Of a stretch of DNA of 9,030 nucleotides, positions 1 to 9,030 are shown in pieces. Source of the DNA: a virus (lineage: Duplodnaviria > Heunggongvirae > Uroviricota > Caudoviricetes); the IMG/VR virus record IMGVR_UViG_2706794687_000015, one strand, 5' to 3'. How positions within the stretch are numbered: the first letter of the stretch is position 1; each line of letters opens with the position of its first letter. The position numbers and the translations under genes are program-made. The notes beneath the pieces were generated by a model. The model was not told the DNA's origin and searched no databases. It saw only the letters and a list, made by a program, of their open reading frames with translations.

Positions 1-2562
1 ATGAGTGCAATAGAAAATTTCGACGCCCATACGCCCATGATGCAGCAGTATCTCAGGCTGAAAGCCCAGCATCCCGAGATCCTGCTGTTTTACCGGATGG
101 GTGATTTTTATGAACTGTTTTATGACGACGCAAAACGCGCGTCGCAACTGCTGGATATTTCACTGACCAAACGCGGTGCTTCGGCGGGAGAGCCGATCCC
201 GATGGCGGGGATTCCCTACCATGCGGTGGAAAACTATCTCGCCAAACTGGTGAATCAGGGAGAGTCCGTTGCCATCTGCGAACAAATTGGCGATCCGGCG
301 ACCAGCAAAGGTCCGGTTGAGCGCAAAGTTGTGCGTATCGTTACGCCAGGCACCATCAGCGATGAAGCCCTGTTACAGGAGCGTCAGGACAACCTGCTGG
401 CGGCTATCTGGCAGGACAGCAAAGGTTTCGGCTACGCGACGCTGGATATCAGCTCCGGGCGTTTTCGCCTGAGCGAACCGGCCGACCGCGAAACGATGGC
501 GGCAGAGCTGCAACGCACTAATCCGGCGGAACTGCTGTATGCAGAAGATTTCGCCGAGATGTCGCTGATTGAAGGCCGTCGCGGCCTGCGCCGTCGCCCG
601 CTGTGGGAGTTTGAAATCGACACCGCGCGCCAGCAGTTGAATCTGCAATTTGGCACCCGCGATCTGGTCGGTTTTGGCGTCGAGAACGCGCCGCGCGGAC
701 TTTGTGCTGCCGGTTGTCTGTTGCAGTATGCGAAAGATACCCAACGCACGACCCTGCCGCATATTCGTTCTATCACCATGGAACGTGAGCAGGACAGCAT
801 CATTATGGATGCCGCGACACGTCGTAACCTGGAAATTACTCAGAACCTGGCGGGCGGTGCGGAAAATACGCTGGCTTCTGTGCTCGACTGCACCGTCACG
901 CCGATGGGTAGTCGTATGCTGAAACGCTGGCTGCATATGCCAGTGCGCGATACCCGCGTGTTGCTTGAGCGCCAGCAAACTATTGGCGCATTGCAGGATT
1001 TCACCGCCGAGTTGCAGCCGGTACTGCGTCAGGTCGGCGACCTGGAACGTATTCTGGCACGTCTGGCTTTACGAACTGCTCGCCCACGCGATCTGGCCCG
1101 TATGCGCCACGCTTTCCAGCAACTGCCGGAGCTGCGTGCGCAGTTAGAAACTGTCGATAGTGCACCGGTACAGGCGCTACGTGAGAAGATGGGCGAGTTT
1201 GCCGAGCTGCGCGATCTGCTGGAGCGAGCAATCATCGACACACCGCCGGTGCTGGTACGCGACGGTGGTGTTATCGCATCGGGCTATAACGAAGAGCTGG
1301 ATGAGTGGCGCGCGCTGGCTGACGGCGCGACCGATTATCTGGAGCGTCTGGAAGTCCGCGAGCGTGAACGTACCGGCCTGGACACGCTGAAAGTTGGCTT
1401 TAATGCGGTGCACGGCTACTACATTCAAATCAGCCGTGGGCAAAGCCATCTGGCACCCATCAACTACATGCGTCGCCAGACGCTGAAAAACGCCGAGCGC
1501 TACATCATTCCAGAGCTAAAAGAGTACGAAGATAAAGTTCTCACCTCAAAAGGCAAAGCACTGGCACTGGAAAAACAGCTTTATGAAGAGTTGTTCGACC
1601 TGCTGTTGCCGCATCTGGAAGCGTTGCAACAGAGCGCGAGCGCGCTGGCGGAACTCGACGTGCTGGTGAACCTGGCGGAACGGGCCTATACCCTGAACTA
1701 CACCTGCCCGACCTTCATTGATAAACCGGGCATTCGCATTACCGAAGGTCGCCATCCGGTAGTTGAACAAGTACTGAATGAGCCATTTATCGCTAACCCG
1801 CTGAATCTGTCGCCGCAGCGCCGTATGTTGATCATCACCGGTCCGAACATGGGCGGTAAAAGTACCTATATGCGCCAGACCGCACTGATTGCGCTGATGG
1901 CCTACATCGGCAGCTATGTACCGGCACAAAAAGTCGAGATTGGACCTATCGATCGCATCTTTACCCGCGTAGGCGCGGCAGATGACCTGGCTTCCGGGCG
2001 CTCAACCTTTATGGTGGAGATGACTGAAACCGCCAATATTTTACATAACGCCACCGAATACAGTCTGGTGTTAATGGATGAGATCGGGCGTGGAACGTCC
2101 ACCTACGATGGTCTGTCGCTGGCGTGGGCGTGCGCAGAAAATCTGGCGAATAAGATTAAGGCATTGACGCTGTTTGCCACCCACTATTTCGAGCTGACCC
2201 AGCTACCGGAGAAAATGGAAGGCGTCGCCAACGTACATCTCGATGCGCTGGAGCACGGCGACACTATCGCCTTTATGCACAGCGTGCAGGACGGCGCGGC
2301 GAGCAAAAGCTACGGTCTGGCGGTTGCTGCTCTGGCGGGCGTACCGAAAGAGGTTATTAAGCGCGCACGGCAAAAACTGCGTGAGCTGGAAAGCATTTCG
2401 CCGAACGCCGCCGCGACGCAAGTGGATGGTACGCAGATGTCTTTGCTGTCAGTGCCAGAAGAAACTTCGCCTGCGGTCGAAGCACTGGAAAATCTCGACC
2501 CGGATTCACTGACTCCGCGTCAGGCGCTGGAGTGGATTTATCGCTTGAAGAGTCTGGTGTAA
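1..2562 (+). CDS. mutS: DNA mismatch repair protein MutS, complete 853 aa
   Basis: Single long ORF from ATG at 1 to TAA at 2560-2562. N-terminal mismatch-binding motif GDFYELF, Walker [10 protein letters not shown], downstream [12 protein letters not shown]. Matches E. coli MutS length and sequence as recalled. Confidence 0.97.
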
Positions 2563-2567
2563 TAACA

Positions 2568-2596
2568 ATTCCCGATAGTCTTTTGCTATCGGGAAT
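2568..2596. terminator. Inverted repeat just downstream of mutS stop; possible terminator
   Basis: ATTCCCGATAG (2568-2578), 7-nt loop TCTTTTG, CTATCGGGAAT (2586-2596): 11-bp perfect stem. Flanking sequence is AT-rich but has no clean U-tract, so terminator function is uncertain. Confidence 0.35.
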
Positions 2597-2667
2597 ATTA
2601 ACGACAACTGACGAATCAAATAAAAATACCCTGTATAATAGGAAAGCTTATTTTACAGGGTAAAACC

Positions 2668-3085
2668 ATGCCATCTACACGCTATCAAAAAATCAATGCC
2701 CATCACTATCGCCATATATGGGTCGTTGGTGATATTCATGGTGAATATCAGTTATTACAATCCCGTTAACATCAACTCTCTTTTTACCCTGAAACCGACT
2801 TACTTATTTCCACAGGCGATAATATTGATCGTGGGCCGAAGAGTCTTAACGTGCTGCGCCTGCTAAACCACCCCTGGTTTACGTCGGTTAAAGGCAACCA
2901 CGAAGCGATGGCGTTGGATGCATTCGAAACTGGCGATGGAAATATGTGGCTTGCCAGCGGTGGTGACTGGTTTTTCGATTTAAATGATTCAGAGCAACAA
3001 GAGGCAATAGATCTGTTGCTGAAATTCCATCACCTTCCACATATTATTGAAATCATTAATGACAACATAAAATATGCCATCGCAC
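2668..3085 (+). pseudogene. pphB: Serine/threonine protein phosphatase 2 (PPP family), inactivated by premature stop and 3' truncation at IS1
   Basis: ATG at 2668 with AGGG 7 nt upstream. Translation gives MPSTRYQKINAHHYRHIWVVGDIHGEYQLLQSR, then in-frame TAA at 2767-2769. The same frame continues ...GDNIDRGP...GNHEAMA... (PPP motifs GDxHG, GDxxDRG, GNHE) up to 3085, where the IS1 end begins. About 139 codons remain of an expected ~218. Confidence 0.85.
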
Positions 3086-3100
3086 GGTAATGACTCCAAC

Positions 3101-3604
3101 TTATTGATAGTGTTTTATGTTCAGATAATGCCCGATGACTTTGTCATGCAGCTCCACCGATTTTGAGAACGACAGCGACTTCCGTCCCAGCCGTGCCAGG
3201 TGCTGCCTCAGATTCAGGTTATGCCGCTCAATTCGCTGCGTATATCGCTTGCTGATTACGTGCAGCTTTCCCTTCAGGCGGGATTCATACAGCGGCCAGC
3301 CATCCGTCATCCATATCACCACGTCAAAGGGTGACAGCAGGCTCATAAGACGCCCCAGCGTCGCCATAGTGCGTTCACCGAATACGTGCGCAACAACCGT
3401 CTTCCGGAGACTGTCATACGCGTAAAACAGCCAGCGCTGGCGCGATTTAGCCCCGACATAGCCCCACTGTTCGTCCATTTCCGCGCAGACGATGACGTCA
3501 CTGCCCGGCTGTATGCGCGAGGTTACCGACTGCGGCCTGAGTTTTTTAAGTGACGTAAAATCGTGTTGAGGCCAACGCCCATAATGCGTGCAGTTGCCCG
3601 GCAT
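3101..3604 (-). CDS. insB: IS1 InsB frame (167 aa), expressed as InsAB' fusion by -1 frameshift
   Basis: [19 protein letters not shown]... overlapping the insA 3' end in the -1 frame; canonical IS1 organisation. Confidence 0.9.
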
Positions 3605-3798
3605 CCAACGCCATTCATGGCCATATCAATGATTTTCTGGTGCGTACCGGGTTGAGAAGCGGTGTAAGTGAACTGCAGTTGCCATGTTTTACGGCAGTGA
3701 GAGCAGAGATAGCGCTGATGTCCGGCAGTGCTTTTGCCGTTACGCACCACCCCGTCAGTAGCTGAACAGGAGGGACAGCTGATAGAAACAGAAGCCAC
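3523..3798 (-). CDS. insA: IS1 InsA (91 aa), transposition inhibitor / N-terminal part of InsAB' transposase
   Basis: [42 protein letters not shown]... recognised as IS1 InsA with its zinc-finger Cys cluster. Confidence 0.93.
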
Positions 3799-3853
3799 TG
3801 GAGCACCTCAAAAACACCATCATACACTAAATCAGTAAGTTGGCAGCATCACC

Positions 3854-3944
3854 NNNNNNNNNNNNNNNNNNNNNNNNNNNNNNNNNNNNNNNNNNNNNNN
3901 NNNNNNNNNNNNNNNNNNNNNNNNNNNNNNNNNNNNNNNNNNNN
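3854..3944. other. Run of 91 N (assembly or scaffold gap, or masked sequence) between two IS1 copies
   Basis: Literal N characters in the sequence. Flanked on each side by a complete IS1 copy. Confidence 0.95.
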
Positions 3945-3959
3945 GGTAATGACTCCAAC

Positions 3960-4463
3960 TTATTGATAGTGTTTTATGTTCAGATAATGCCCGATGACTT
4001 TGTCATGCAGCTCCACCGATTTTGAGAACGACAGCGACTTCCGTCCCAGCCGTGCCAGGTGCTGCCTCAGATTCAGGTTATGCCGCTCAATTCGCTGCGT
4101 ATATCGCTTGCTGATTACGTGCAGCTTTCCCTTCAGGCGGGATTCATACAGCGGCCAGCCATCCGTCATCCATATCACCACGTCAAAGGGTGACAGCAGG
4201 CTCATAAGACGCCCCAGCGTCGCCATAGTGCGTTCACCGAATACGTGCGCAACAACCGTCTTCCGGAGACTGTCATACGCGTAAAACAGCCAGCGCTGGC
4301 GCGATTTAGCCCCGACATAGCCCCACTGTTCGTCCATTTCCGCGCAGACGATGACGTCACTGCCCGGCTGTATGCGCGAGGTTACCGACTGCGGCCTGAG
4401 TTTTTTAAGTGACGTAAAATCGTGTTGAGGCCAACGCCCATAATGCGTGCAGTTGCCCGGCAT
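3960..4463 (-). CDS. insB: IS1 InsB frame (167 aa)
   Basis: Protein identical to the copy 1 InsB. Confidence 0.9.
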
Positions 4464-4657
4464 CCAACGCCATTCATGGCCATATCAATGATTTTCTGGT
4501 GCGTACCGGGTTGAGAAGCGGTGTAAGTGAACTGCAGTTGCCATGTTTTACGGCAGTGAGAGCAGAGATAGCGCTGATGTCCGGCAGTGCTTTTGCCGTT
4601 ACGCACCACCCCGTCAGTAGCTGAACAGGAGGGACAGCTGATAGAAACAGAAGCCAC
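4382..4657 (-). CDS. insA: IS1 InsA (91 aa)
   Basis: Protein identical to the copy 1 InsA. Confidence 0.93.
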
Positions 4658-4819
4658 TGGAGCACCTCAAAAACACCATCATACACTAAATCAGTAAGTT
4701 GGCAGCATCACCGAAGTGGTAAAGAAGATAATAAAGAATAATATTTAGGGTTATAGGTCTTAGCCCATTTTAAATGGAAGGCAGACATGCAGCCATGCAT
4801 ACTTCGCATGGCAACATAA

Positions 4820-5161
4820 TTATTTAGACAAACTATCTAATTTTTGCGTCGCTTTTTGTGTTAGGTCGCTGTAACTGATAAACCCTACGTTAGCACCTAC
4901 AATTAACACTAAGAACACTAAGCTGCATATGGATAGAGTGGCAGATTTATGCTTATGGAAAACAAAATATGCTACTATTGCACTTAATATGAAGGAAATG
5001 AATAGAAATATAGATGTTGATGTTTTTAGATATTTTTCAGGAAATAATGGGTGAGCAATAATGTATACAAGATTAAGTAGTATATAAATTGCTACCGGAA
5101 TGAAAATCATGCTCCAGTGTGTATCTTTTTTGGGAGGGATTGGCTGCAAATAATCAGACAC
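4820..5161 (-). CDS. Hypothetical small integral membrane protein, 3 predicted TM helices (113 aa from GTG at 5161, or 96 aa from ATG at 5110)
   Basis: Minus-strand ORF ending TAA (plus 4820-4822). Three hydrophobic stretches: IFIPVAIYILLNLVYIIA, IFLFISFILSAIVAYFVF, ICSLVFLVLIVGANVGFI. Very AT-rich codon usage. No family recognised. Start codon ambiguous: GTG at 5161 has a weak GGA upstream; internal ATG at 5110 has GGAG only 1 nt upstream. Confidence 0.55.
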   Translation of the reverse strand: MSDYLQPIPPKKDTHWSMIFIPVAIYILLNLVYIIAHPLFPEKYLKTSTSIFLFISFILSAIVAYFVFHKHKSATLSICSLVFLVLIVGANVGFISYSDLTQKATQKLDSLSK

Positions 5162-5243
5162 CGTTTTTCCATCAGTTTCAAGAAGAATTACTAGATCTCT
5201 TACTTCACCACTGACTTGAGTGCATCCTTAGTAGTAATGTTAA

Positions 5244-5621
5244 TCATTTTTTCCCTCCAAATACGATGCCCTCTACGTCTTTGGAAGCTTTTTGTGATGA
5301 CCACTCCTCTGAATCAGGTGATTTAATTAAAAATATTGTATCTCCATCAAAAATCGTATTTGTTCCGTAAAAATTCACATTTGATAGATCACCACCAAAA
5401 ACCCTCTGCCCACTCGAGGTAATTGCCTCACCTAATTTAGTAAAATTACCAGCAATAGATGATTTTCTTTTTCCACTTCTATTCAAAGTGGCTTTAATTA
5501 CACCACCACCATCCTTAGAGTTAAATAATTGAATGTCCACTCCAGCAGTTGGTTGTATATATTTTGAAAGCTCTTTCTTGAACTTGTTAATATATTTATC
5601 TTTGTTTTCTTTGTTGGTCAT
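5244..5621 (-). CDS. Hypothetical soluble protein, 125 aa, Lys/Gly/Ser-rich, no Cys or His
   Basis: Minus-strand ORF MTNKENKDKYINKFKKELSKYIQPTAGVDIQLFNSKDGGGVIK...IVFGGKK from ATG at 5621. No signal peptide or TM segment. AT-rich. Lies 82 bp upstream of the membrane-protein ORF on the same strand, which suggests a two-gene operon. No family recognised. Confidence 0.6.
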   Translation of the reverse strand: MTNKENKDKYINKFKKELSKYIQPTAGVDIQLFNSKDGGGVIKATLNRSGKRKSSIAGNFTKLGEAITSSGQRVFGGDLSNVNFYGTNTIFDGDTIFLIKSPDSEEWSSQKASKDVEGIVFGGKK

Positions 5622-5658
5622 TGGTTAGATCCATAGTTCTGGCTGTGATTAGGTGAAA

Positions 5659-5664
5659 GTATAC
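5659..5664 (-). promoter_or_regulatory. Candidate -10 element (TATACT on minus strand) for the two-gene cassette
   Basis: TATACT about 38 nt upstream of the ATG at 5621 on the minus strand. No convincing -35 found. Weak, by-eye prediction only. Confidence 0.2.
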
Positions 5665-5793
5665 AAGGTTTTTAAAGCGAAGATCACTGTTTTGGCTTCA
5701 AGATAGTTTTGATTTATCGTAATCAATCCGCCATAATCCTCTCATCGGAGCCTGAACAACTCCGGTGACTTCTGCGCATTTAAGGGGACTTAA

Positions 5794-5889
5794 ATGCGAC
5801 CACAATCTGAACTCATCACCTTGTCACAGATGCAGAAATGCACCTGCGATTTTCTGCATTCTGCGGTTTCCGTTAGGGAGGCCGTATGA
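5794..5889 (+). CDS. ylcH: Small ORF (31 aa) translationally coupled to ybcN; possibly ylcH-like
   Basis: ATG at 5794 preceded by AAGGGGA. Encodes MRPQSELITLSQMQKCTCDFLHSAVSVREAV. Its TGA (5887-5889) overlaps the ybcN ATG (5886-5888) as ATGA. Position matches ylcH upstream of ybcN in DLP12, but the protein sequence was not verified from memory. Confidence 0.4.
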   Translation: MRPQSELITLSQMQKCTCDFLHSAVSVREAV

Positions 5890-6341
5890 CTCTGCCAGTA
5901 GACGGCATCAAACTCCATCGCGGTAACTTCGCGGCCATCGGCCAGCAGATTCAGCCATTGCTGGATGCCGGGCAATGCTTACGCCTGCAGGTTAAGCCGT
6001 GGCGCGAGAAGCGCAGCCTGTCGCAGAACGCGCTCAGCCACATGTGGTACACGGAGATCAGCGAATATCTCATCGCCCGCGGCAAGACCTTCGCTACGCC
6101 TGAGTGGGTCAAAGACGCGATGAAGCACACCTATCTCGGCTACGAAAGCAAAGACCGTGTAGATGTCGTGTCCGGCGAGGTCACCACCGTCCAATCCCTC
6201 CGCCATACGTCAGAGCTGGAAACCGGCGAGATGTACATCTTCCTGTGCAAAGTCGAAGCCTGGGCGATGAATATCGGCTGCCACCTGACAATTCCGCAGA
6301 GCTGTGAATACCAGCAGCTGCGCGATAAGCAGGAGGCGTAA
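5886..6341 (+). CDS. ybcN: Lambdoid prophage NinB/Orf-family protein YbcN (151 aa)
   Basis: ATG at 5886 with AGGGAGG 5 nt upstream. Protein MTLPVDGIKLHRGNF...REKRSLSQNALSHMW... shares the RSLxQN core with lambda NinB (Orf). Matches DLP12 YbcN in length and sequence as recalled. Confidence 0.85.
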   Translation: MTLPVDGIKLHRGNFAAIGQQIQPLLDAGQCLRLQVKPWREKRSLSQNALSHMWYTEISEYLIARGKTFATPEWVKDAMKHTYLGYESKDRVDVVSGEVTTVQSLRHTSELETGEMYIFLCKVEAWAMNIGCHLTIPQSCEYQQLRDKQEA

Positions 6342-6511
6342 TGGCTACACCGCTTATTCGTGTCATGAACGGGCACATCTACAGAGTATCAAATCGTCGT
6401 AAGCGTAAGCCTGAGCTGAAGCCATCCGAAATACCAACACTGCTCGGATATACCGCTAGCCTGGTTGATAAAAAATGGTTGCGACTGGCAGCAAGGAGGA
6501 ATCATGGCTGA
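6341..6511 (+). CDS. ninE: Prophage NinE-family protein (56 aa)
   Basis: ATG at 6341 overlaps the ybcN stop (TAATG). Encodes [56 protein letters not shown]. Its TGA overlaps the ybcO start (ATGGCTGA). Below the length cutoff of the supplied ORF track. Confidence 0.8.
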   Translation: MATPLIRVMNGHIYRVSNRRKRKPELKPSEIPTLLGYTASLVDKKWLRLAARRNHG

Positions 6512-6794
6512 TTTGAGAAAAGCAGCGCGTGGTCGGGAATGCCAGGTAAGAATCCCTGGCGTATGTAATGGCAATCCTGAAACGTCAGTACTGGCACATA
6601 TCCGGCTGGCTGGATTGTGCGGTACCGGTATCAAACCGCCAGACCTGATTGCCACCATTGCATGTTCTGCCTGTCACGACGAAATCGACCGCCGCACATA
6701 TTTTGTCGATGCTGAGTATGCAAAAGAATGCGCGCTGGAAGGTATGGCGAGAACGCAGGTTATCTGGCTGAAAGAGGGGGTTATTAAGGCGTGA
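6504..6794 (+). CDS. ybcO: Prophage DUF1364-family Cys-rich protein YbcO (96 aa), putative zinc-binding nuclease
   Basis: ATG at 6504 with AGGAGG 4 nt upstream (the track ORF begins at an upstream in-frame ATG at 6465). Protein [23 protein letters not shown]...[11 protein letters not shown] has a Cys4 plus His cluster. Matches YbcO as recalled. Confidence 0.85.
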
Positions 6795-7153
6795 ATACCT
6801 ACAGCATCACATTACCCTGGCCTCCGAGCAATAACCGCTATTACCGCCATAATCGCGGGCGCACACACATCAGCGCAGAAGGGCAGGCATACCGCGATAA
6901 CGTCACCCGAATCATTAAAAACGCAATGCTGGATATCGGCCTGGCTATGCCAGTGAAAATCCGTATTGAGTGCCACATGCCGGATCGCCGTCGCCGTGAC
7001 CTGGATAATCTGCAAAAAGCCGCTTTTGACGCACTCACCAAAGCAGGTTTCTGGCTGGATGATGCTCAGGTCGTTGATTACCGCGTTGTGAAGATGCCTG
7101 TTACCAAAGGTGGGAGGCTGGAACTGACCATCACCGAAATGGGGAATGAATGA
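6791..7153 (+). CDS. rusA: Holliday junction resolvase RusA (120 aa)
   Basis: GTG start at 6791 overlapping the ybcO stop (GTGA). Protein [24 protein letters not shown]... contains the acidic catalytic region RRDLDNL ... [11 protein letters not shown]. Matches E. coli RusA as recalled. Confidence 0.9.
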
Positions 7154-7290
7154 TGTTTGAGTTTTATATGGCAGAACTTCTTCGCCACCGCTGGGGGCAT
7201 CTGCGCTTATATCGTTTCCCCGGTTCTGTTTTGACCGATTACCGAATACTGAAGAATTACGCCAAAACCCTGACAGGAGCAGGAGTATGA
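7150..7290 (+). CDS. ylcG: Small prophage protein YlcG (46 aa)
   Basis: Tandem ATGs at 7150 and 7153 overlap the rusA stop (ATGATG). Encodes [46 protein letters not shown], stop TGA at 7288-7290. Below the length cutoff of the supplied ORF track. Confidence 0.7.
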
Positions 7291-7375
7291 AGTCAGAGAT
7301 AACAATCAACTAATACTGTTTTGTTGATTTTTGCTTGTAATTGGCGTTCTGGTCTGATTTTTGTGGAGTAAGTTG

Positions 7376-7759
7376 ATGCGTGATATTCAGATGGTTCTTG
7401 AGCGTTGGGGAGCGTGGGCGGCTAATAATCATGAAGATGTGACCTGGTCGTCCATTGCCGCCGGTTTTAAGGGATTAATTACTTCAAAAGTAAAATCTCG
7501 CCCGCAATGTTGTGACGATGACGCGATGATTATTTGCGGGTGCATGGCCCGTCTGAAAAAGAACAACAGCGATTTGCACGATTTATTAGTAGATTATTAT
7601 GTAGTCGGTATGACATTCATGTCACTGGCAGGTAAGCATTGCTGCTCTGATGGTTATATCGGGAAAAGGTTACAGAAGGCTGAGGGCATAATTGAAGGGA
7701 TGTTAATGGCATTAGATATCCGGTTAGAGATGGATATCGTTGTTAATAACTCTAATTAA
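7376..7759 (+). CDS. quuD: Late-gene antiterminator Q (127 aa)
   Basis: ATG at 7376 with GGAG 7 nt upstream (the track ORF starts at an upstream TTG). Protein [24 protein letters not shown]...[16 protein letters not shown]... has the Cys-rich zinc-binding region. Matches DLP12 QuuD as recalled. Confidence 0.85.
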
Positions 7760-7793
7760 TATGCCAATTGTTTACTAAAAATTATTAAAAATG

Positions 7794-7811
7794 GGGCGTT
7801 GCAACGCCCCC
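7794..7811 (-). terminator. Perfect 18-bp palindrome GGGGCGTTGCAACGCCCC flanked by A5/T5 runs; likely intrinsic terminator for minus-strand (nmpC) transcripts, possibly bidirectional
   Basis: GC-rich hairpin. On the minus strand it is followed immediately by ATTTTTAATAATTTTT. On the plus strand it is followed by CAAAAATAAA, a poor U-tract. Confidence 0.4.
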
Positions 7812-7899
7812 AAAAATAAAGGGTAATATATAACAGAAGGTTTATATAGTTAGAAGCAAGGTTGTGCTCCTAAAGGAAGTGGCTTGAGGGAGCCACTTA

Positions 7900-7933
7900 T
7901 ATGTTGGGGAGGCAAAGCCTCCCGCAACATATC
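7900..7933 (+). terminator. Strong hairpin followed by CTTTT on the plus strand; candidate tR'-like terminator of the Q-controlled late leader, or nmpC 3' stem-loop
   Basis: Core stem GGGAGGC (7908-7914), loop AAA, GCCTCCC (7918-7924), extended by ATATGTTG / CAACATAT with a 1-nt bulge. Followed by CTTTTAG. A second hairpin AAGTGGCT-TGAGGG-AGCCACTT sits immediately upstream at 7878-7899. Confidence 0.4.
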
Positions 7934-7947
7934 TTTTAGTAATCAAA

Positions 7948-9030
7948 TTAGAACTGGTAAACCATACCTACAGCAACGATATCATCGGTAGCAACGCCAG
8001 ATGCTTTCGTGAAATCGCTCTTATCAATCAGGTTGATTTTGTAATCAACAAAAGTGGACATATTTTTGTTGAAGTAATAGGTTGCACCTACATCAATATA
8101 TTCAACCAGGTCCTGATCACCCCACGCACCCAAGTCTTTTCCTTTAGATTGCAGGTAAGCAACGGACGGACGCAGACCGAAGTCGAACTGATATTGTGCA
8201 ACTACTTCGAAGTTTTGTGCTTTGTTGGCAATATGGTTATTACCAAAAACAGTCATGTTCTGGGTTTCAGAATAGGTGGTAGCCAGATAGATGTTGTTCG
8301 CATCATATTTCAGACCAGCTGCCCATACTTCAGCATTTTGACCAGATGCATTCAGGCTGTTGTTACCGTAGATAACCTGATTATTAGTGCGGTCAGATTT
8401 AGCATAGGTTGCACCTACACCGAATCCTTCATACTCATAAGTAGTGGAGAAACCGAAACCATCACCATTAGCTTCAGTTACGTCAGTGCGGTCATTTTTA
8501 CCCTGATACTGAGCAGCAAAGTTCAGACCATCAACCAGACCAAAGAAGTCGTTGTTACGATAAGTTGCAACACCAGTGGTGCGACCAGTCATGAACACAT
8601 CTGTTTGAGTCCAAGTGTCACCACCGAATTCTGGCAGGACGTCAGTCCACGCACCGATGTCGTATGCTACACCGTAGTTACGGCCGTAATCGATGGAGCC
8701 GTAGTCACCGAATTTCAGGCCAGCGAAGGCAAGACGGGTTTTATCTTTGGAGGAACCTTGAGATTCAGCGCGGTTGCCTTTGAATTCATATTCCCACTGA
8801 CCGAAACCAGTCAGTTGATCGTTGATTTGGGTTTCACCTTTGAAGCCAAGACGGGCATAAGTAGTATCACCATCATCTGCATCATTAGAGGAGAAGTAGT
8901 GCTTAGCATTAACTTTCCCGTACAGATCCAGCTTGTTACTGTCTTTATTATAAATTTCAGCTGCCTGAGCAGACATCGCCATCAGTACTGATGCAGCTAC
9001 AGCAGAAATTGCCACTGTTAATTTTTTCAT
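7948..9030 (-). CDS. nmpC: Outer-membrane general porin of the OmpC/OmpF/NmpC family (360 aa), prophage-encoded, apparently intact
   Basis: Minus-strand ORF from ATG at 9030 (window edge) to TAA at 7948-7950. Signal peptide [23 protein letters not shown], mature N-terminus AEIYNKD, C-terminal ...VGMVYQF with terminal Phe typical of beta-barrel OMPs. Closely resembles NmpC/OmpD as recalled. No IS interruption inside the ORF. Confidence 0.9.

What the first reader, a model, noticed from the sequence alone, without database searches (positions are those of the whole stretch)
4820..5161. Small 3-TM membrane protein with ambiguous start codon, possible effector or immunity component
The ORF has three clear hydrophobic helices separated by short charged loops (PEKYLKTSTS, HKHKSATLS) and a polar C-terminal tail (SDLTQKATQKLDSLSK). 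Size and topology resemble small inner-membrane proteins that act as pore-forming or immunity components. The start is uncertain: GTG at 5161 gives 113 aa with a weak RBS, while the first ATG at 5110 gives 96 aa but sits 1 nt after GGAG, which is too close. This may indicate unusual translation initiation or coupling.
Basis: seen in the sequence. Interest (0 to 1): 0.5.

Follow-up and report, generated by a model that had tools for sequence, protein, structure and literature searches.

The report
Frameshifted membrane gene of prophage cassette
The ORF is the tail end of a 142-residue membrane-protein gene broken by a one-base deletion, which explains its odd start codon; the intact gene always travels with a 125-residue partner as an uncharacterised two-gene cassette in prophages and small plasmids of enteric bacteria.

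Summary
The ORF (4820-5161, minus strand) and its three hydrophobic helices are real. The "ambiguous start" comes from a mutation. In all 46 complete E. coli genomes that carry this DNA, the gene is 429 nt (142 aa, WP_000608370.1). It starts at an ATG (window 5247) that overlaps the stop of the upstream 125-aa gene and follows a GGAGG ribosome-binding site. The window lacks one G at about 5223. The true start now yields a 15-codon peptide, and the rest of the gene is stranded without the N-terminal domain, the most conserved part of the family. The 113-aa product of this allele is annotated on at least 100 Shigella sonnei contigs, so the deletion is real. It lies in a prophage remnant bounded by IS1.

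The intact 125-aa and 142-aa genes form a fixed, translationally coupled pair under strong purifying selection (dN/dS about 0.07-0.13). The cassette is AT-rich and antisense to the phage early operon, between the replication and nin genes of mosaic lambdoid prophages. It also occurs on small ColE1-type plasmids. Neither protein matches any Pfam, NCBIfam, PADLOC, PDB or viral-structure entry.

Function is unproven. My best guess is a cytoplasmic regulator plus a membrane-acting effector, working like an abortive-infection or toxin-antitoxin module. In this window the module is dead.

The parts
4820..5247 (-). Frameshifted (pseudogenised) gene for the 142-aa protein with an N-terminal cytoplasmic domain and three TM helices. 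It is the orthologue of WP_000608370.1 / ECP_RS05850 of E. coli 536. The true ATG is at 5247-5245 and the stop at 4822-4820.
   Evidence: Apart from one missing G, the DNA is identical across the aligned stretch to the 429-nt gene annotated in complete E. coli genomes. It matches PHROG 16940 at E = 2e-74, covering profile positions 30-142 only.
5223..5224 (-). Site of the 1-nt deletion (GATGGCAC -> GATGCAC) in codon 9 (Gly9).
   Evidence: Alignment A1. All 46 complete E. coli genomes carrying the cassette have the extra G. The deletion allele is also in L028, and its 113-aa product is annotated on at least 100 Shigella sonnei contigs.
5200..5247 (-). Residual 15-codon ORF (MINITTKDALKSVVK*). 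This is all the true start codon can now produce.
   Evidence: Read directly from the sequence.
4820..5161 (-). TM1 is at 5051-5113, TM2 at 4955-5017 and TM3 at 4871-4939.
5254..5258 (-). GGAGG Shine-Dalgarno sequence of the membrane-protein gene, 6 nt before ATG 5247. It lies inside the partner's C-terminal GGKK codons.
   Evidence: The partner's C-terminal Gly-(Gly/Ser)-(Lys/Arg)-Lys motif is conserved in the 125-aa members, and the plasmid-borne 128-aa partners keep a related LGRK followed by a short extension.
5244..5621 (-). Intact 125-aa partner gene (WP_000182282.1 / ECP_RS05855; PHROG 18061). It has a charged N-terminus, no hydrophobic signal-like segment and a predicted alpha+beta fold. 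Its stop codon overlaps the membrane gene's ATG (ATGA).
5658..5663 (-). -10-like box (TATACT), 37-42 nt upstream of the partner's ATG. It is conserved as TATGAT or TATAAT in diverged copies of the cassette and is a candidate cassette promoter element.
   Evidence: Alignment A5; coordinates. The consensus promoter scan did not call it, so it is only a candidate.
4792..4812 (-). Conserved hairpin (GCCATGC-N7-GCATGGC) starting 8 nt after the stop codon. It travels with the cassette but has no U-tract, so it may be a non-canonical terminator or an mRNA-stabilising stem.
   Evidence: Alignment A6. The MFE of the 82-nt region downstream of the stop codon (4741-4822), which contains this stem, is -23.2 kcal/mol.
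4713..4741 (+). Last ~30 nt of the lambdoid replication gene P, the left edge of the prophage remnant. Everything upstream is replaced by IS1.
   Evidence: The match to complete genomes starts at window 4712. P ends 30 nt into that match.
3945..4712 (-). Complete 768-bp IS1 copy that truncates gene P.

Best explanation
SHOWN. The ORF is codons 30-142 of a gene inactivated by a 1-nt deletion in codon 9. The intact gene encodes a 142-aa protein with a ~45-residue N-terminal domain followed by three TM helices; the first 36 residues are nearly invariant. The predicted topology is N-terminus in the cytoplasm and C-terminus in the periplasm. The gene is the second gene of a fixed two-gene cassette whose first gene encodes a 125-aa soluble protein. 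The two genes are translationally coupled: their stop and start codons overlap (ATGA) and a GGAGG site lies inside the first gene. The cassette is AT-rich and sits antisense between the replication genes and the nin genes of mosaic lambdoid prophages. It also lies directly downstream of the replicase on ~3.6-kb ColE1-type plasmids, and beside mobilisation genes on one short metagenomic contig. In the window, most likely from Shigella sonnei, it lies in a ~4.3-kb prophage remnant bounded by IS1 and is a pseudogene.

INFERRED. The cassette is a self-contained accessory ('moron' or plasmid cargo) module expressed from the repressed prophage or the plasmid. The 125-aa cytoplasmic protein regulates or senses, probably through the conserved cytoplasmic N-domain of the membrane protein. 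The 3-TM protein, probably an oligomer held together by the invariant membrane-embedded Asn59 and Asn120, acts on the inner membrane as the effector. The outcome would be protection of the carrier element, by abortive infection or exclusion of incoming phage, or by post-segregational killing in the manner of a toxin-antitoxin pair.

My confidence in the 'shown' part is about 0.95, and in the inferred function about 0.4-0.45.
For: Frameshift and true start.

The allele is real and typical of S. sonnei.

N-domain conservation: the N-terminal 36 residues are nearly invariant, with pN = 0.00 against pS = 0.52 for L001 vs L029.

Purifying selection on both genes: dN/dS is 0.07-0.13 in unsaturated pairs.

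Obligate pairing: both genes are present, adjacent and co-oriented in 32 of 32 loci, down to 34-36% (membrane protein) and 35-49% (partner) identity.

Moron features: 32-37% GC against 52-58% in the flanks. The cassette is present in only 46 of the 2,186 E. coli genomes that share the flanking DNA. A -10-like box and a hairpin are conserved with it while the flanks diverge. These match the definition of a moron in PMC3594210.

Plasmid carriage: L010 and L011 have a PF03090 replicase and Rop, and L015 has MobC/NikA genes. A related plasmid carries other cargo downstream of its replicase, including a DUF4433 protein; from my own knowledge that is the DarT toxin domain.

Topology and invariant Asn59, Asn120 and Gly122 in TM1 and TM3.

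Decay pattern: the membrane gene is frameshifted with the partner intact in three independent lineages, namely the window plus L028 (codon 9), L032 (about codon 53), and L037 plus L038 (A-run at codon 41). This is what is expected if the membrane protein is the costly component and the partner is harmless alone.
Against: There is no functional data of any kind.

Neither protein matches any PADLOC defence model, Pfam or NCBIfam family, PDB sequence or viral or PDB fold. The partner's structural model is poor (pLDDT 58.5).

No canonical sigma-70 promoter or intrinsic terminator was called for the cassette strand, so expression in the lysogen is assumed.

One locus (L036) has a broken partner with an intact membrane gene, which argues against the membrane protein being lethal alone. 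That locus is a single short-read unitig with two frameshifts within ~100 nt.

The cassette was not found in 50,697 sequenced phages or 72,556 PLSDB plasmids. The phage and plasmid contexts therefore rest on prophage regions and short assembly contigs.
Confidence: 0.55

Rival explanations
1. Non-lethal superinfection exclusion. The 3-TM protein sits in the inner membrane of the lysogen and blocks genome entry of incoming phages, like HK97 gp15, P22 SieA or T4 Imm. The 125-aa protein is an accessory or stabilising factor. No toxicity or sensing is involved.
For: It has a moron-like location and composition, and it is a small inner-membrane protein encoded antisense to the lytic operon. Precedents for moron-encoded inner-membrane exclusion proteins are described in PMC3594210 and PMC10883804.
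Against: Known exclusion proteins of this type act alone. Here a cytoplasmic partner is obligately coupled in 32 of 32 loci, and the most conserved part of the membrane protein is its cytoplasmic N-domain. The module is also carried on ~3.6-kb plasmids in the replicase operon. Repeated loss of only the membrane gene fits a cost better than a neutral shield. There is no sequence similarity to the YebO/gp15, SieB or Imm families.
Confidence: 0.2
2. A maintenance or physiology function unrelated to conflict. Examples are membrane tethering or regulation of the replicon it sits next to, or a lysogenic-conversion trait affecting envelope physiology.
For: In both backbones the pair is next to replication genes. 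It is convergent with P, DnaB or DnaC-type genes in prophages, and it overlaps the end of the replicase gene on the ~3.6-kb plasmids.
Against: It is present in only 46 of 5,426 complete E. coli genomes and absent from most related prophages and plasmids with the same replication genes, so it is dispensable for replication. On a 3.6-kb plasmid every gene is 'next to' rep. The replication modules beside it are of at least three unrelated types.
Confidence: 0.13
3. In this window an intact 113-aa (GTG 5161) or 96-aa (ATG 5110) three-TM protein is the native product, made by unusual initiation or coupling.
For: The ORF is open from 5161, and annotation pipelines call it a hypothetical protein in many S. 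sonnei assemblies. Re-initiation 39 nt after the stop of the 15-codon leader cannot be excluded.
Against: Both candidate starts are internal codons (Val30, Met47) of a 142-codon gene that is intact in all 46 complete E. coli genomes carrying the cassette and in every other lineage examined here apart from three frameshift alleles. The missing N-domain is the most constrained part of the protein. GTG 5161 has only a weak GGA upstream, and ATG 5110 is 1 nt from GGAG. The surrounding prophage is a decayed remnant bounded by IS1.
Confidence: 0.07
4. Bacteriocin plus immunity pair. The 125-aa protein is a toxin or microcin-like product, and the 3-TM protein is its inner-membrane immunity protein, as for E1-type pore-forming colicins.
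For: Three-TM immunity proteins of about 110-140 aa are typical for E1-type colicins (my own knowledge). Small ColE1-type plasmids often carry bacteriocin cargo. In L008 a colicin-like gene and a Colicin_im gene lie next to the cassette.
Against: The partner has a charged N-terminus and no hydrophobic signal-like segment or leader, and no export or lysis gene accompanies it. It has no similarity to colicin, microcin or immunity families. If the membrane protein were the immunity factor, its loss with the 'toxin' intact would be self-killing, yet this has happened in three independent lineages. The L008 colicin pair is a separate, complete unit.
Confidence: 0.04
5. The single-base deletion is a sequencing or assembly error, and the gene is intact in the organism.
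For: The window contains a 91-nt N-run between two IS1 copies, so it comes from a draft, scaffolded or masked sequence.
Against: The same allele is in an independent assembly with a different IS structure (L028). Its exact 113-aa product is recorded on at least 100 contigs from many S. sonnei isolates. GG -> G is not a typical homopolymer error.
Confidence: 0.01

Closest known systems
Lambda RexA/RexB abortive-infection (exclusion) pair
   Same: It is a prophage-encoded, lysogen-expressed two-gene module with a cytoplasmic protein and a small (~140 aa) polytopic inner-membrane protein that is thought to act on membrane potential. RexB is 144 aa against 142 aa here. This comparison rests on my own knowledge of the Rex system.
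   Different: There is no sequence similarity; no RexB family appears in the Pfam scans. RexB has 4 TM helices and no conserved N-terminal soluble domain. RexA is 279 aa against 125 aa here. rexAB sits in the immunity region with cI, not between the replication and nin genes. The present pair is also plasmid-borne.
Toxin-antitoxin pairs with a small membrane toxin encoded downstream of a small soluble antitoxin (type V GhoS/GhoT; type IV CptB(SdhE)/CptA(YgfX))
   Same: The gene order is the same (soluble protein first, membrane protein second), both proteins are small, and the pair is carried on mobile elements. The membrane gene is preferentially lost while the soluble gene remains intact.
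   Different: There is no sequence or fold similarity. GhoT is 57 aa and CptA has 2 TM helices. Toxicity and neutralisation are untested here. One locus keeps the membrane gene while the partner is broken.
HK97 gp15 moron / P22 SieA / T4 Imm superinfection-exclusion membrane proteins
   Same: They are moron-type accessory genes of temperate phages that encode small inner-membrane proteins expressed from the prophage (PMC3594210; PMC10883804).
   Different: Those proteins act as single genes. Here the partner is obligatory and the N-domain is cytoplasmic. There is no sequence similarity.
PHROG 16940 and PHROG 18061 (phage protein families of unknown function); RefSeq WP_000608370.1 and WP_000182282.1 'hypothetical protein'
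   Same: These are the families to which the two genes belong by sequence (E = 2e-74 and 9e-85; 100% identity apart from the frameshift).
   Different: The window's copy covers only profile positions 30-142 of PHROG 16940 because of the frameshift. Neither family has an assigned function.

Membership tests
PHROG 16940 / WP_000608370.1 family (142-aa N-domain + 3-TM protein) | Full-length sequence match to the family profile | tested here: met
   E = 2.2e-74, but the match covers profile positions 30-142 only. The DNA is identical across the aligned stretch to the 429-nt gene except for one deleted G.
PHROG 16940 / WP_000608370.1 family (142-aa N-domain + 3-TM protein) | Intact reading frame from the coupled ATG through the conserved N-terminal domain | tested here: not met
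   A 1-nt deletion in codon 9 means the window copy is a pseudogene.
PHROG 18061 / WP_000182282.1 family (125-aa partner) | Full-length sequence match and an intact ORF immediately upstream with overlapping stop and start | tested here: met
   E = 9.3e-85 over profile positions 1-125. The protein is 100% identical to the E. coli protein, and the ATGA overlap is present.
Moron (independently transcribed accessory cassette of a temperate phage) | Base composition differs from the flanking phage genes | tested here: met
   32-37% GC against 52-58% GC in the flanks. Definition from PMC3594210.
Moron (independently transcribed accessory cassette of a temperate phage) | Present in some and absent from other closely related phages, and found in unrelated backbones | tested here: met
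   Present in 46 of the 2,186 E. coli genomes that share the flanking DNA. Found beside at least three types of replication module and different nin genes.
Moron (independently transcribed accessory cassette of a temperate phage) | Own promoter and terminator | tested here: inconclusive
   A -10-like box and a hairpin are conserved with the cassette. The consensus scan called no promoter or terminator on the cassette strand, and the hairpin lacks a U-tract.
Moron (independently transcribed accessory cassette of a temperate phage) | Expressed from the repressed prophage | not testable with these tools
   Needs RNA-seq or Ribo-seq of a lysogen such as E. coli 536.
Known anti-phage defence systems (PADLOC-DB v2.0.0) | Significant match of either protein to a defence-system model | tested here: not met
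   The best hit was E = 0.17 to a generic 4-TM effector model. Six diverse members gave no hits.
RexB-like / holin / colicin-immunity / Hok-GhoT-CptA membrane toxin / YebO-gp15 / SieB / Imm families (Pfam) | Sequence match to the family HMM | tested here: not met
   Pfam scans at E <= 0.1 and E <= 1 list only sub-threshold generic TM matches, none of them to these families. NCBIfam gives none.
Toxin-antitoxin or abortive-infection module (functional class) | The membrane protein is toxic when expressed and the partner neutralises or gates it; or the module gives a phage-resistance phenotype | not testable with these tools
   There is only indirect support: three independent losses of the membrane gene with the partner intact, against one unitig with the reverse pattern.
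Pore-forming colicin immunity (E1 type) | A cognate pore-forming colicin gene is adjacent | tested here: not met
   Among the loci where neighbouring genes were listed, a colicin-like gene is nearby only in L008, where it has its own Colicin_im gene.

The most novel reading that the evidence does not exclude
The intact 125-aa and 142-aa pair is a previously unrecognised, very compact (~0.9 kb) two-gene conflict system, either anti-phage abortive infection or exclusion, or an addiction module. It would have a new family of membrane effector, with a 36-residue near-invariant cytoplasmic N-domain, three TM helices and invariant intramembrane Asn residues, gated by a new small cytoplasmic protein. 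It shuttles between lambdoid prophages and ColE1-type plasmids of Enterobacteriaceae. The S. sonnei allele would then be a natural N-domain knockout.
Probability: 0.4. Interest if true: 0.55.

Novelty: new member of a known kind. Interest (0 to 1): 0.3.

Why it matters
For this window, the result corrects an annotation. The ORF that pipelines call a 113-aa "hypothetical protein" in Shigella sonnei is a frameshifted remnant. It is not a gene with unusual initiation, and it adds one more example of IS-driven and mutational decay in that species.

More broadly, the intact pair is a tightly conserved, strongly selected, mobile two-gene module with no recognisable relatives. It occupies the accessory slot between the replication and nin genes of lambdoid prophages, and the cargo slot of very small plasmids, where space is scarce. 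Modules with this profile have often turned out to be defence or addiction systems. This one is small and easy to test. A positive result would add a new membrane-effector family, and a negative result would cheaply remove a candidate.

Tried and rejected
1. Unusual initiation at GTG 5161 or ATG 5110: rejected. Both are internal codons of a frameshifted gene.

2. Programmed frameshifting: rejected. There is no slippery sequence at AAG GAT GCA, and the intact allele is found in every other lineage examined here apart from two other frameshift alleles.

3. Sequencing error: rejected.

4. Family assignment by HMM libraries gave nothing above threshold. Pfam. NCBIfam. PADLOC. PHROGs gave only families of unknown function.

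5. Remote homology. A profile search of 1.84 billion representative proteins gave 7 hits, all family members except a weak repeat match to a 571-aa helical-repeat protein, P0036 (E = 7e-5). I judged that match to be a helix-turn-helix-like pattern coincidence. A partner profile search of 5.8 billion proteins returned family members only. PDB sequence profiles gave nothing meaningful.

7. Collections with no match: sequenced phages, PLSDB plasmids and GTDB species representatives.

8. Literature. No paper mentions either accession. Neither is in the DefensePredictor supplements. Brenes and Laub 2025 is not held. General searches found no description of this pair.

9. Holin: rejected. The gene is antisense, lies in the early region far from the lysis cassette, and is also plasmid-borne.

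Full report
**1. What is in the window**

The window starts with mutS (1-2562, +). A fragment annotated as pphB in E. coli follows (ORF 2851-3090). Two complete 768-bp IS1 copies (3086-3853 and 3945-4712) flank a 91-nt N-run at 3854-3944. Next come the last ~30 nt of a lambdoid replication gene P (4713-4741).

Two minus-strand ORFs follow: the finding (4820-5161) and a 125-aa ORF (5244-5621). After them come plus-strand ybcN/ninB-like, ninE, ybcO, rusA, ylcG and quuD (Q antiterminator) genes, and a minus-strand OmpC/NmpC-type porin gene (7948-9030). This is the right half of a DLP12-type lambdoid prophage.

**2. Checking the observation**

The 113-codon GTG-start ORF exists. Kyte-Doolittle analysis gives three peaks of 2.4-2.5, and AlphaFold2 models three long helices with block pLDDT of 82-90. 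The three-TM observation is correct.

The start-codon puzzle has a simple cause. PHROG 16940 matches the ORF at E = 2e-74, but only over profile positions 30-142 of 142. In complete E. coli genomes the orthologue is annotated as a 429-nt gene, WP_000608370.1, whose ATG overlaps the stop of the upstream gene WP_000182282.1.

A DNA alignment shows that the window is identical to those genomes across the aligned stretch except for one missing G (GATGGCAC -> GATGCAC, about window 5223) in codon 9. The true ATG at 5247 has a GGAGG site 6 nt upstream (5254-5258). It now yields only MINITTKDALKSVVK* (5247-5200). GTG 5161 and ATG 5110 are simply Val30 and Met47 of the intact protein.

**3. Is the deletion real?**

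- All 46 complete E. coli genomes that carry the cassette have the intact allele.
- The deletion allele recurs in IMG/VR contig L028. That contig is 100% identical to window 4482-9030, but its IS1 is interrupted by an IS21-family element, so it is an independent assembly.
- The exact 113-aa product is annotated as "hypothetical protein [Shigella sonnei]" on at least 100 contigs from many isolates.

The mutation is therefore real and typical of S. sonnei, which is very probably the source of the window. In S. sonnei drafts the remnant is usually a ~5-kb contig. Where flanking sequence is available it ends in IS1, and different assemblies join different neighbours across that IS1.

**4. The intact protein and its partner**

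The membrane-protein family is very small. It has 17 clusters at 90% identity among 5.8 billion proteins and 7 hits among 1.84 billion representatives with a profile search. All named members are from Enterobacteriaceae, and nearly all full-length members are 142 aa.

The N-terminal 36 residues are nearly invariant. Between E. coli and an Enterobacter-type copy, this segment has pN = 0.00 at pS = 0.52. The window's allele cuts off the first 29 of these residues.

In seven sequences diverged to about 35% identity, the following features hold:
- The three TM segments are almost entirely uncharged.
- The short TM2-TM3 loop is always net positive (+2 or +3).
- The TM1-TM2 loop is net neutral or negative in 5 of 7 sequences.
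- Asn59 (TM1) and Asn120 and Gly122 (TM3) are invariant.

With a 45-residue N-terminal domain and no signal peptide, this predicts an N-in, C-out topology. Membrane-embedded Asn residues are classic drivers of helix association (my own knowledge), which suggests an oligomer.

The 125-aa partner is equally restricted, with 13-18 clusters. It has a highly charged N-terminus with no hydrophobic signal-like segment. Its predicted alpha+beta fold is of low confidence (pLDDT 58.5). Both genes are under strong purifying selection, with dN/dS of 0.07-0.13 in unsaturated comparisons.

**5. The pair is a mobile unit**

Both genes are present, adjacent and co-oriented, with the partner first, in 32 of 32 loci examined. 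This includes lineages where the partner is only 35-49% identical and the membrane protein only 34-36% identical.

In prophages the pair always lies antisense to the early-right operon, between the replication genes and the nin region. The neighbours vary: lambda O/P, DnaB-type or DnaC-type replication genes on one side, and NinB or DUF1367 on the other.

Several features mark the unit:
- It is 32-37% GC against 52-58% GC in the flanks.
- It occurs in only 46 of the 2,186 E. coli genomes that share the flanking DNA.
- A -10-like box about 40 nt upstream of the partner's ATG, and a GCCATGC...GCATGGC hairpin just after the membrane gene's stop, are conserved with it while the flanks diverge.

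These are the features that define a moron (PMC3594210). No canonical promoter or terminator was called, however.

The same pair, in diverged form, lies on ~3.6-kb ColE1-type plasmid contigs, directly overlapping the end of a PF03090 replicase gene and next to rop (L010, L011). It also lies next to MobC/NikA mobilisation genes in L015. A related small plasmid carries other cargo downstream of its replicase, including a DUF4433 protein; from my own knowledge that is the DarT toxin domain.

**6. What it does**

The supporting observations are these:
- The module is compact, self-contained and strongly selected.
- It rides on two kinds of mobile element.
- It is placed where it can be expressed in the lysogen.
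- It combines a cytoplasmic protein with a membrane protein whose most constrained part faces the cytoplasm.

This fits best a regulator or sensor plus a membrane effector. It would work like lambda RexAB or like membrane-toxin TA pairs (GhoST, CptAB), and it would serve phage exclusion, abortive infection or element maintenance.

One weak line of independent support is the decay pattern. The membrane gene has been frameshifted, with the partner left intact, in three independent lineages:
- the window and L028, at codon 9;
- L032, at about codon 53;
- L037 and L038, in the A-run at codon 41.

The only clear reverse case is a single unitig with two frameshifts (L036). This is expected if the membrane protein is the costly component and the partner is harmless alone. 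It argues against the membrane protein being an immunity factor for a toxic partner.

Non-lethal superinfection exclusion, a replicon-related role and a bacteriocin/immunity pair are less well supported rivals (see the rival explanations).

**7. Verdict**

The "ambiguous start" is a frameshift, and in this window the gene is a pseudogene within an S. sonnei prophage remnant bounded by IS1. That is an ordinary finding.

The intact two-gene cassette is an uncharacterised, mobile, strongly conserved module and a reasonable candidate for a new small conflict system. There is no functional evidence for this yet. Interest is 0.3. The cassette is best filed as a new, uncharacterised member of the known kind [quoted passage not shown].

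Noticed in passing
window 3086-4712: Two complete, identical 768-bp IS1 copies (3086-3853 and 3945-4712) flank a 91-nt N-run (3854-3944). The join between the mutS/pphB side and the prophage remnant therefore runs through a gap or mask inside repeated DNA. Other S. sonnei assemblies join the remnant to different neighbours across IS1: L040 to pphB'-mutS through one IS1, L041 to a DAO/bssS region through two IS1 copies, and L028 to an IS1 interrupted by an IS21-family element. The adjacency may depend on the assembly.
   Followed up: partly
window 2563-3090: pphB, downstream of mutS, appears degraded. Only an ORF of 79 codons (2851-3090), matching the middle of PphB as I recall it, is left before IS1 cuts it at 3086. 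The 5' part (2563-2850) does not give a continuous ORF. Pfam gave no hit for the fragment.
   Followed up: no
window 4713-4741: IS1 has removed everything of the prophage to the left of the last ~30 nt of replication gene P (int, recombination, immunity and O/P genes). S. sonnei therefore retains only a ~4.3-kb piece running from P' to the porin gene, and L028 has a further IS1 copy beyond the porin gene.
   Followed up: partly
window 5248-5258: The partner's C-terminal Gly-(Gly/Ser)-(Lys/Arg)-Lys motif, conserved in the 125-aa members, is encoded by GGAGGGAAAAAA. The same bases supply the GGAGG Shine-Dalgarno sequence and spacer of the downstream gene, so the stretch is under dual coding and translation-signal constraint.
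   Followed up: partly
L008 5297-6980: In one prophage, a colicin-like pore-former gene (377 aa, weak PF01024 hit) and a Colicin_im gene (174 aa) sit immediately next to the cassette, and a DndB-domain gene lies on the other side. The slot between the replication and nin genes looks like a hotspot for conflict genes.
   Followed up: no
P0036 (571 aa), residues ~290-480: This is the only non-family hit of the deep profile search. It is a helical-repeat protein whose ~37-residue repeats (…NVRDLVKKFENEGLTVEDYLHKACLKQ…) resemble the N-domain motif EVRDLVILLETDGKTVSDYLQP (E = 7e-5, four stretches). This may be chance, or a hint that the N-domain is a helix-loop-helix interaction motif.
   Followed up: no
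L033 (CP037447.1) 655-3363: A related small ColE1-type Klebsiella plasmid carries, downstream of its replicase gene, a 143-aa hypothetical gene that overlaps the replicase gene, a DUF4433 gene (the DarT toxin domain, from my own knowledge) and a 233-aa hypothetical gene. This suggests that the cargo region downstream of the replicase is exchangeable.
   Followed up: partly
window 7948-9030 and 1-2562: The window is cut exactly at gene boundaries. Base 1 is the mutS ATG and base 9030 is the ATG of the minus-strand OmpC/NmpC-type porin gene. The porin gene is intact here, whereas from my own knowledge nmpC of E. coli K-12 DLP12 is disrupted by an IS5 insertion.
   Followed up: no
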